Source: Sanchytrium tribonematis
Lineage: Eukaryota
Assembly (NCBI GenBank): GCA_018985235.1
Contig: JADGIG010000035.1
Coordinates: 1-36,011 of the forward strand
Direction: 5' to 3'
DNA length: 36,011 bases
The position numbers and the translations under genes were made by a program. Below, one piece after another: positions 32,533 to 34,359 of this stretch. The notes beneath the pieces were generated by a model. The model ran no database searches. It was not told where the DNA came from and saw nothing but the letters and a program-made list of their open reading frames with translations. Numbering within the stretch: the first letter of the stretch is position 1; each line of letters starts with the position of its first letter.

Positions 32533-34359
<1,827 letters not shown>

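What the first reader, a model, noticed from the sequence alone, without database searches (positions are those of the whole stretch)
33808..33832. Decoy 3' splice site hidden in the base of the DBP2 intron hairpin
Seen: two tandem branch/acceptor units of identical geometry lie 16 nt apart, CTAATGTAG (33808-33816) and CTAACTTAG (33824-33832), both with T at -8 and A at -6. The upstream one sits inside the weak basal stem; the productive one is just outside it. Splicing to 33816 gives TTA G|GA CAG TTC TAA, a stop within four codons that removes motif VI. Inference: melting only the imperfect basal stem would expose the decoy and divert the mRNA to a premature-stop (NMD-type) isoform, a structure-controlled alternative acceptor choice.
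Basis: partly seen in the sequence, partly recalled or inferred. Interest (0 to 1): 0.82.

Follow-up and report, generated by a model that had tools for sequence, protein, structure and literature searches.

The report
Hairpin-masked splice site in fungal helicase
In a little-studied algal-parasite fungus with very short introns, an RNA-unwinding enzyme's gene carries a longer intron that is predicted to fold into a hairpin over a second splice site, which likely lets the enzyme shut down its own message, as shown for a related plant enzyme, but use of that site is untested.

Summary
The 117-nt intron (33716-33832) is the conserved DBP2/DDX5 motif-V intron of a sanchytrid fungus. It carries two branch/acceptor units 16 nt apart; the upstream one is predicted buried in a 12-bp basal stem under a 28-bp core, and its use would give a 381-aa protein without motif VI. 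Use of the site is unshown: no RNA covers the intron and no relative's intron DNA was reachable. In its favour: the strict motif is rare by chance (0.9% of shuffles), the basal stem beats shuffles (6-12 of 500), and land-plant DRH1 uses this logic in a different intron. Against: a looser motif arises in 11.5% of shuffles and the decoy departs at -4 from all three real acceptors. New here: the two other homology-supported introns in the window are 19 nt, so the hairpin likely also shortens this intron to a spliceable size, and the decoy's GTAG also opens a 20-nt GT-AG unit, a rival hidden donor. Retention alone would also give an early stop. The scan's earlier, unchecked notes report similar masked sites in diatom and arthropod DDX5-type genes. 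Verdict: new variant of a known kind.

The parts
32581..33715 (+). DBP2/DDX5-type DEAD-box helicase, exon 1 (start to motif V, ends RGL + G of the split Asp codon)
   Evidence: translation; named best hits are DBP2/DDX5, closest named Amoeboradix gromovi at 78%
33716..33832 (+). 117-nt phase-1 intron at the conserved motif-V position
   Evidence: removal restores a 553-aa frame; same position in fetched loci; a relative's protein reads RGL-D-VKDIK across the junction
33716..33721 (+). 5' splice site GTATGA, followed by an in-frame TAA at 33727-33729 (retention gives a 382-aa product)
33730..33741 (+). 5' strand of the predicted 12-bp basal stem
33744..33804 (+). core hairpin: 23-bp perfect inverted repeat (33744-33766 / 33782-33804) plus 5 bp and a 4-nt loop
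   Evidence: only perfect inverted repeat among 22 found in the window
33807..33820 (+). 3' strand of the predicted basal stem; holds the decoy unit and the alternative donor
33808..33816 (+). candidate decoy branch/acceptor CTAATGTAG (putative branch A 33811)
   Evidence: use untested
33813..33832 (+). 20-nt GT-AG unit starting inside the decoy (donor-like GTAGGA) and ending at the productive AG; candidate alternative 5' splice site
   Evidence: size matches the organism's 19-nt introns; use untested
33824..33832 (+). productive branch/acceptor CTAACTTAG (putative branch A 33827); overlaps the decoy isoform's stop at 33825-33827
33833..34359 (+). exon 2: end of motif V region, motif VI and Gly/Asn/Arg-rich tail
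   Evidence: best solved-structure match is yeast Dbp2 from residue 426

Best explanation
The intron is likely a self-limiting sensor for the Dbp2 helicase: a predicted hairpin hides a second branch point and acceptor, and unwinding of its base would divert splicing to a stop-carrying message. Shown in sequence: the conserved intron, two acceptor units, the premature stop, and 19-nt introns elsewhere in the window. Predicted: the fully folded stem leaves 14 + 12 free nucleotides, bringing a 117-nt intron near the organism's normal size and presenting only the productive site. Inferred: abundant Dbp2 opens the 12-bp base while the 28-bp core stays; the decoy branch A then sits 6 nt from the stem end, exactly as the productive one does in the closed state, and is the nearer acceptor; the product lacks motif VI and would be a long-3'UTR NMD target. 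Retention probably rises alongside.
For: Strict motif rare by chance, 0.9% anywhere and 0.14% near the 3' end. Basal extension more stable than shuffled flanks, 6-12 of 500 in each of six tests. Same spacing of branch A (6 nt) and AG (12 nt) from the stem end in both states. Three homology-supported acceptors in the window all have T-8/A-6, so the unit is self-contained, as in species with fixed branch-AG distance (PMC2483917 passages). A relative's intron start, known only as an 8-residue run-through peptide (P0003), can be back-translated to complement the window's 3' strand including the decoy (14 of 1500 random windows, 7 of 800 target shuffles, 10 of 800 peptide shuffles score as high) better than it matches the window's 5' strand (173 of 1500). 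Plant DRH1/RH46 precedent with mutational proof (bioRxiv 10.64898/2026.01.23.701338). The sanchytrid A. gromovi has a UPF1 orthologue (PMC8371127 supplement row). Yeast Dbp2 autoregulates through this intron (title of Barta and Iggo 1995, seen only in reference lists).
Against: The looser acceptor pattern arises in 11.5% of shuffles and the bare T-8/A-6/AG in 52%. All 3 real acceptors end YTTAG; the decoy has G at -4. The acceptor model rests on 3 introns. The back-translation hint is weak: 3 of 67 run-through peptides reach the same score (P0003 is one of the three), an earlier version with hand-picked targets gave p between 0.006 and 0.19, and with G-U pairs allowed an unrelated peptide scores higher. 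Among 22 other motif-V introns with a callable branch point, 2 have a loose upstream branch+AG and none with the same spacing. [quoted passage not shown] The same paper reads stems over cryptic 3' sites as fidelity guards.
Confidence: 0.45

Rival explanations
1. The hairpin is a zipper that shortens the intron; Dbp2 unwinding lowers splicing and the message decays by retention. The upstream unit is a silent cryptic site that the stem merely covers.
For: Other introns here are 19 nt; the folded stem leaves 26 free nt. All four sanchytrid-like genomic ORFs stop 3-8 codons after RGLG, so retention is always unproductive. Zipper stems and stems over cryptic 3' sites are common in yeast introns. 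Ascomycete-type motif-V introns fold into long rods with a conserved core helix and no evident tandem acceptor.
Against: Does not explain why a rare strict motif sits in the stem base with matched spacing.
Confidence: 0.3
2. The functional hidden site is a donor, not an acceptor: opening the base exposes GTAGGA at 33813, a normal-sized 20-nt intron is cut to the productive AG, and the 97 nt left in the message bring the stop at 33727-33729.
For: 20 nt matches the 19-nt norm and the PTR2 intron starts GTAG. A GTA[AGT]G 18-22 nt from the end arises in 1.6% of 3000 shuffles. It uses the stronger acceptor and needs no loop-out.
Against: Any GTA at that distance arises in 8% of shuffles; the GTAG is implied by the decoy's own letters, so the two signals are not independent; donor consensus known from only 3 introns.
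Confidence: 0.15
3. The hairpin is a DNA-level inverted duplication or small foldback insertion without regulatory role, and the tandem unit is chance or a relic of a short duplication.
For: The 23-bp arm has no G-U pairs; each arm is itself partly palindromic and ATTTCCTTG occurs twice (sequence); no other fetched motif-V intron has more than 14 contiguous Watson-Crick pairs (36 distinct).
Against: It lies in the one intron known for helicase feedback; no second copy in the window; the two 16-nt units match at only 2 of 7 positions outside the 9-nt signal (sequence); the basal extension is imperfect yet above chance.
Confidence: 0.1

Closest known systems
Land-plant DEAD motif in DRH1/RH14 and RH46 (Sack et al. 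2025, PMC12218528; Burgardt et al. 2026, bioRxiv 10.64898/2026.01.23.701338)
   Same: DDX5-like helicase gene; one long near-perfect hairpin in an intron; alternative 3' splice site at the stem base; its use gives a premature stop.
   Different: Plant motif is in DRH1 intron 4, ahead of the helicase core, has a 19-20-bp stem, is reported as plant-specific and is proven by mutants. Here it is the motif-V intron of a fungus, 117 nt, with a 28-bp core plus 12-bp base, the decoy only 16 nt from the real site, the whole branch+AG unit masked, and nothing proven.
Conserved DBP2/p68 intron and its autoregulation in yeast (Iggo et al. 1991; Barta and Iggo 1995; titles seen in reference lists only)
   Same: Same gene family and, by the fetched loci, the same intron position after motif V.
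   Different: Fetched fungal-type versions are 438-606 nt with branch-AG distances of 10-19 nt and no tandem acceptor; this one is 117 nt and almost all hairpin.
Zipper stems and cryptic-site-masking stems of budding-yeast introns (PMC12350175)
   Same: A stem between donor and branch point shortens the intron; a stem covers a second 3' site.
   Different: Yeast needs at least 42 free nt and 20 nt to the branch point; the full stem here leaves 14 + 6, which fits only a spliceosome used to 19-nt introns.
Ultra-short introns with fixed 3' geometry (chlorarachniophyte nucleomorphs 18-23 nt, PMC4035089; Encephalitozoon TAAYTT, Yarrowia, Trichomonas, PMC2483917)
   Same: 19-nt introns, branch point fused to the AG.
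   Different: Here in a sanchytrid nuclear genome, on only two short introns; not found described in the library.

Membership tests
DBP2/DDX5 subfamily with the conserved motif-V intron | Protein is a DBP2/DDX5 orthologue | tested here: met
   Named top hits are DBP2/DDX5; exon 2 best matches yeast Dbp2. No tree was built.
DBP2/DDX5 subfamily with the conserved motif-V intron | Phase-1 intron after RG[LI], splitting the Asp codon | tested here: met
   40 of 113 fetched loci gave a complete intron ending before D[VIL]...N[YF]D, the other 73 were cut short or gave no acceptor under that rule.
DBP2/DDX5 subfamily with the conserved motif-V intron | Intron-mediated autoregulation by the helicase | not testable with these tools
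   Needs expression experiments.
Land-plant DEAD motif | Located in intron 4 of DRH1/RH46-type genes of land plants | tested here: not met
   Plant junction lies ahead of the Q motif; this intron follows motif V in a fungus. Works like it; is not a member.
Land-plant DEAD motif | Single hairpin, 19-20-bp stem, 3-5-nt loop | tested here: inconclusive
   Single hairpin with 4-nt loop but 28-bp core plus 12-bp base, prediction only.
Land-plant DEAD motif | Alternative 3' splice-site AG paired at the stem base | tested here: met
   AG 33815-33816 predicted paired in the basal stem; structure not probed.
Land-plant DEAD motif | The alternative site is used and its product is an NMD target | tested here: inconclusive
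   The only RNA run offered does not cover the intron.
Land-plant DEAD motif | Sequence homology to the DEAD alignment | not tested
   Alignment not fetched; Rfam gives no match at gathering score in the window.
Budding-yeast zipper stem | [quoted passage not shown] | tested here: inconclusive
   Core alone meets it (28, 22, 50 nt); full stem does not (14, 6, 20 nt).
microRNA precursor or foldback element | Family match at curated score, or further copies | tested here: not met
   All 9 Rfam matches below gathering score; no second copy in the window; the rest of the genome was not available.

The most novel reading that the evidence does not exclude
A fungus with 19-nt introns has compressed the ancient DBP2 feedback intron into a 117-nt switch in which one hairpin both makes the intron spliceable and hides a single word (TGTAG) serving as decoy acceptor and decoy donor; with the plant DEAD motif this would make hairpin-masked splice sites a repeatedly evolved design for self-sensing by DDX5-type helicases, and the first shown in fungi.
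Probability: 0.2. Interest if true: 0.8.

Novelty: new variant of a known kind. Interest (0 to 1): 0.55.

Why it matters
How the DBP2/DDX5 intron, kept across eukaryotes, senses its own helicase has been asked since the yeast work of the 1990s; fetched versions are mostly several hundred to over a thousand bases and hard to dissect. This one is 117 nt with three countable outcomes, so it is a minimal test case. If the decoy is used, the plant mechanism described as plant-specific has an independent fungal counterpart in another intron. The 19-nt introns beside it are of interest for spliceosome reduction in fungi.

Tried and rejected
Own genome not held, so no genome-wide intron model. One RNA run offered; laid on 32300-34600 it gave 5 pieces, none over the intron; laid on 13501-33400 it gave 4 pieces, none over the short introns: no evidence either way. 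Sanchytrid-specific pattern in metagenome contigs: 0. Broad pattern: 113 loci of about 730 estimated, 80 with full flanks; none looked sanchytrid by the exon-end peptide. Patterns in viral and prokaryote collections: 0. Nucleotide similarity of the intron to 102 distinct fetched intron stretches: best E 0.34, rejected. A shared AGGAC word between the basal stem and ascomycete-type introns was considered as deep homology and rejected: short, chosen after the fact, and the AG is not invariant. A TTGAC...CAAG 'internal acceptor' in those introns is explained as a small hairpin. Run-through peptides of P0004 and P0223 are 4 residues, too short to reach the stem. Of 143 frame-joining intron candidates, 5 passed the motif filter; 2 were dropped because they lie in or opposite intact long ORFs. 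Rfam microRNA matches rejected. Barta and Iggo 1995 not held. Literature searches showed no report of a masked acceptor in a fungal DBP2 intron or of sanchytrid intron sizes; the library lacks most subscription papers, and bioRxiv supplements and one scanned supplement of PMC8371127 were not seen.

Full report
Context. The window is a gene-dense eukaryotic stretch of about 30-40% GC. The gene at 32581-34359 is a DBP2/DDX5 helicase; its closest named relative is Amoeboradix gromovi at 78% identity, three unnamed proteins lie at 82-86%, and the other listed hits at 62% or less. The organism is therefore inferred to be a sanchytrid fungus (background: PMC8371127, passages). No genome is held.

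Observation. The intron is 33716-33832, phase 1, after RGL. Exon 2 matches yeast Dbp2 from residue 426, and an unnamed relative's protein reads straight through RGL-D-VKDIK, which supports the productive junction (spliced transcript or intron loss; not distinguishable). The intron folds at z = -8.9: a perfect 23-bp repeat, the only one among 22 inverted repeats in the window, 5 more pairs, then a UU/UU loop and a 12-bp base with two bulges that holds the decoy.

Is the decoy more than chance? It depends on the model. Strict CTAAYNTAG: 0.9% of 5000 shuffles, 0.14% within the last 25 nt. Looser TWAYNYAG, which covers all real acceptors seen: 11.5% and 1.8%. T-8/A-6/AG alone: 52% and 11%. The basal extension is reached by 6-12 of 500 shuffles in each of six tests at 25 C. 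So the stem base and a good unit near the 3' end are each modestly beyond chance, not overwhelmingly.

Two other genes in the window have frame breaks seen before any motif filter: RPN11 (28994-28976, minus) and a PTR2-type transporter (14031-14013, minus). Removing 19 nt restores each; homology stops and resumes at adjacent residues of solved relatives (190/191 for RPN11; 603/604 for SLC15A1). The DBP2 intron is six times longer than these. Folded, it leaves 14 nt after the donor and 12 nt before the AG; with only the core paired, the decoy branch A and AG lie 6 and 12 nt from the stem end, the same as the productive ones in the closed state. The decoy's GTAG also starts a 20-nt GT-AG unit ending at the productive AG; using it would leave the stop at 33727-33729 in the message. 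Opening costs at 37 C are 10.4 kcal/mol for the decoy unit, 8.3 for the alternative donor, 5.8 for the productive unit (which pairs with exon 2 when flanks are included) and 35.8 for the whole 3' arm: the base would need active opening, and can open without the core.

Use and conservation. No RNA evidence was obtainable. No sanchytrid intron DNA was found. All four sanchytrid-like genomic ORFs end 3-8 codons after RGLG, so the intron and an early stop are shared. Only P0003's run-through is long enough to test: its possible codons fit the reverse complement of the window's 3' half with score 13, reached by 14 of 1500 random windows, 7 of 800 shuffled targets and 10 of 800 shuffled peptides, while the fit to the window's 5' half is ordinary (173 of 1500) (first seen). 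That is the pattern expected if the 3' strand with the decoy is conserved and the 5' strand only keeps pairing. It is a hint: 3 of 67 run-through peptides score 13 or more, and allowing G-U pairs weakens it (37 of 1500; one control higher). In other eukaryotes, 40 of 113 loci gave a full motif-V intron (36 distinct, 30-1195 nt); none has more than 14 contiguous Watson-Crick pairs, and 2 of 22 with a callable branch point have a loose upstream branch+AG, neither with matching spacing. The ascomycete-type ones share a core helix in a long rod. The tandem unit is thus not a general fungal feature.

Mechanism. Most likely (0.45) a Dbp2-sensing feedback: closed stem, short effective intron, productive splicing; helicase-opened base, decoy use, truncated and NMD-prone message (stop 532 nt ahead of the normal one; UPF1 annotated in A. 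gromovi; junction-independent NMD in fungi is recalled knowledge). Rivals: zipper plus retention with a silent decoy (0.3), hidden 20-nt donor (0.15), non-functional inverted duplication (0.1). The first three share the feedback idea and are not exclusive. Shown: sequence, frames, intron sizes by homology. Predicted: all folding. Inferred: helicase action, site use, decay.

Comparison with what is known. The plant DEAD motif (bioRxiv 10.64898/2026.01.23.701338: abstract, introduction, first results part, the structure section, one discussion section and passages; PMC12218528: passages, DEAD section and supplement passages) is the same logic, proven, in DRH1 intron 4 ahead of the helicase core, so this works like it but is not a member. 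Autoregulation through the conserved DBP2 intron is known from yeast; I saw only the titles in reference lists (paper not held). Zipper and masking stems: PMC12350175 passages. Short introns and fixed branch-AG spacing: PMC2483917 and PMC4035089 passages. PMC11613528 and PMC10459994 passages added nothing on this element. Two earlier scan notes on other genomes (diatom, arthropod) describe masked splice sites in DDX5-type introns; they are unchecked AI notes and are not counted as support. Motif names (Q, V, VI) are from general knowledge of DEAD-box proteins.

Verdict. Real feature, plausible and precedented mechanism, unproven use; new variant of a known kind, interest 0.55.

Noticed in passing
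window 28994-28976 (-) and 14031-14013 (-): Two 19-nt GT-AG introns (RPN11, PTR2-type transporter), supported by homology on both sides; as short as nucleomorph introns, and sanchytrid intron sizes were not found described in the library searches.
   Followed up: yes
window 33825-33856 (+): The productive acceptor is predicted to pair with the first bases of exon 2; the exon start also resembles the decoy's downstream letters and can pair with the 5' basal strand when the 3' strand is held open.
   Followed up: partly
window 33744-33807 (+): Each arm of the core hairpin begins GGAAAT and ends ATTTCC, and ATTTCCTTG occurs twice (33759-33767, 33799-33807), so short alternative folds are possible during transcription.
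   Followed up: partly
window 8274-8293 (+): A 20-nt intron-like stretch (GTAATT...CTAAATTAG) in the gap between two genes, with no evident coding frame; possibly an untranslated-leader intron or chance.
   Followed up: partly
window 29560-30420: About 860 nt without an ORF of 100 aa and without an Rfam match; holds a CTAACTTAG on the minus strand at 30062-30054.
   Followed up: no
L001, L002, L006, L007, L011, L013, L015, L016, L037, L040, L045, L046, L048, L049 (motif-V introns): Ascomycete-type DBP2 introns of 438-606 nt share a C-rich 5' tract and a CUUGG/CCAAG core helix within a long rod-like fold.
   Followed up: partly
L020, L056, L057, L094, L096, L112: Motif-V introns of only 30-78 nt in other eukaryotes, so this intron is not always long or structured.
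   Followed up: no
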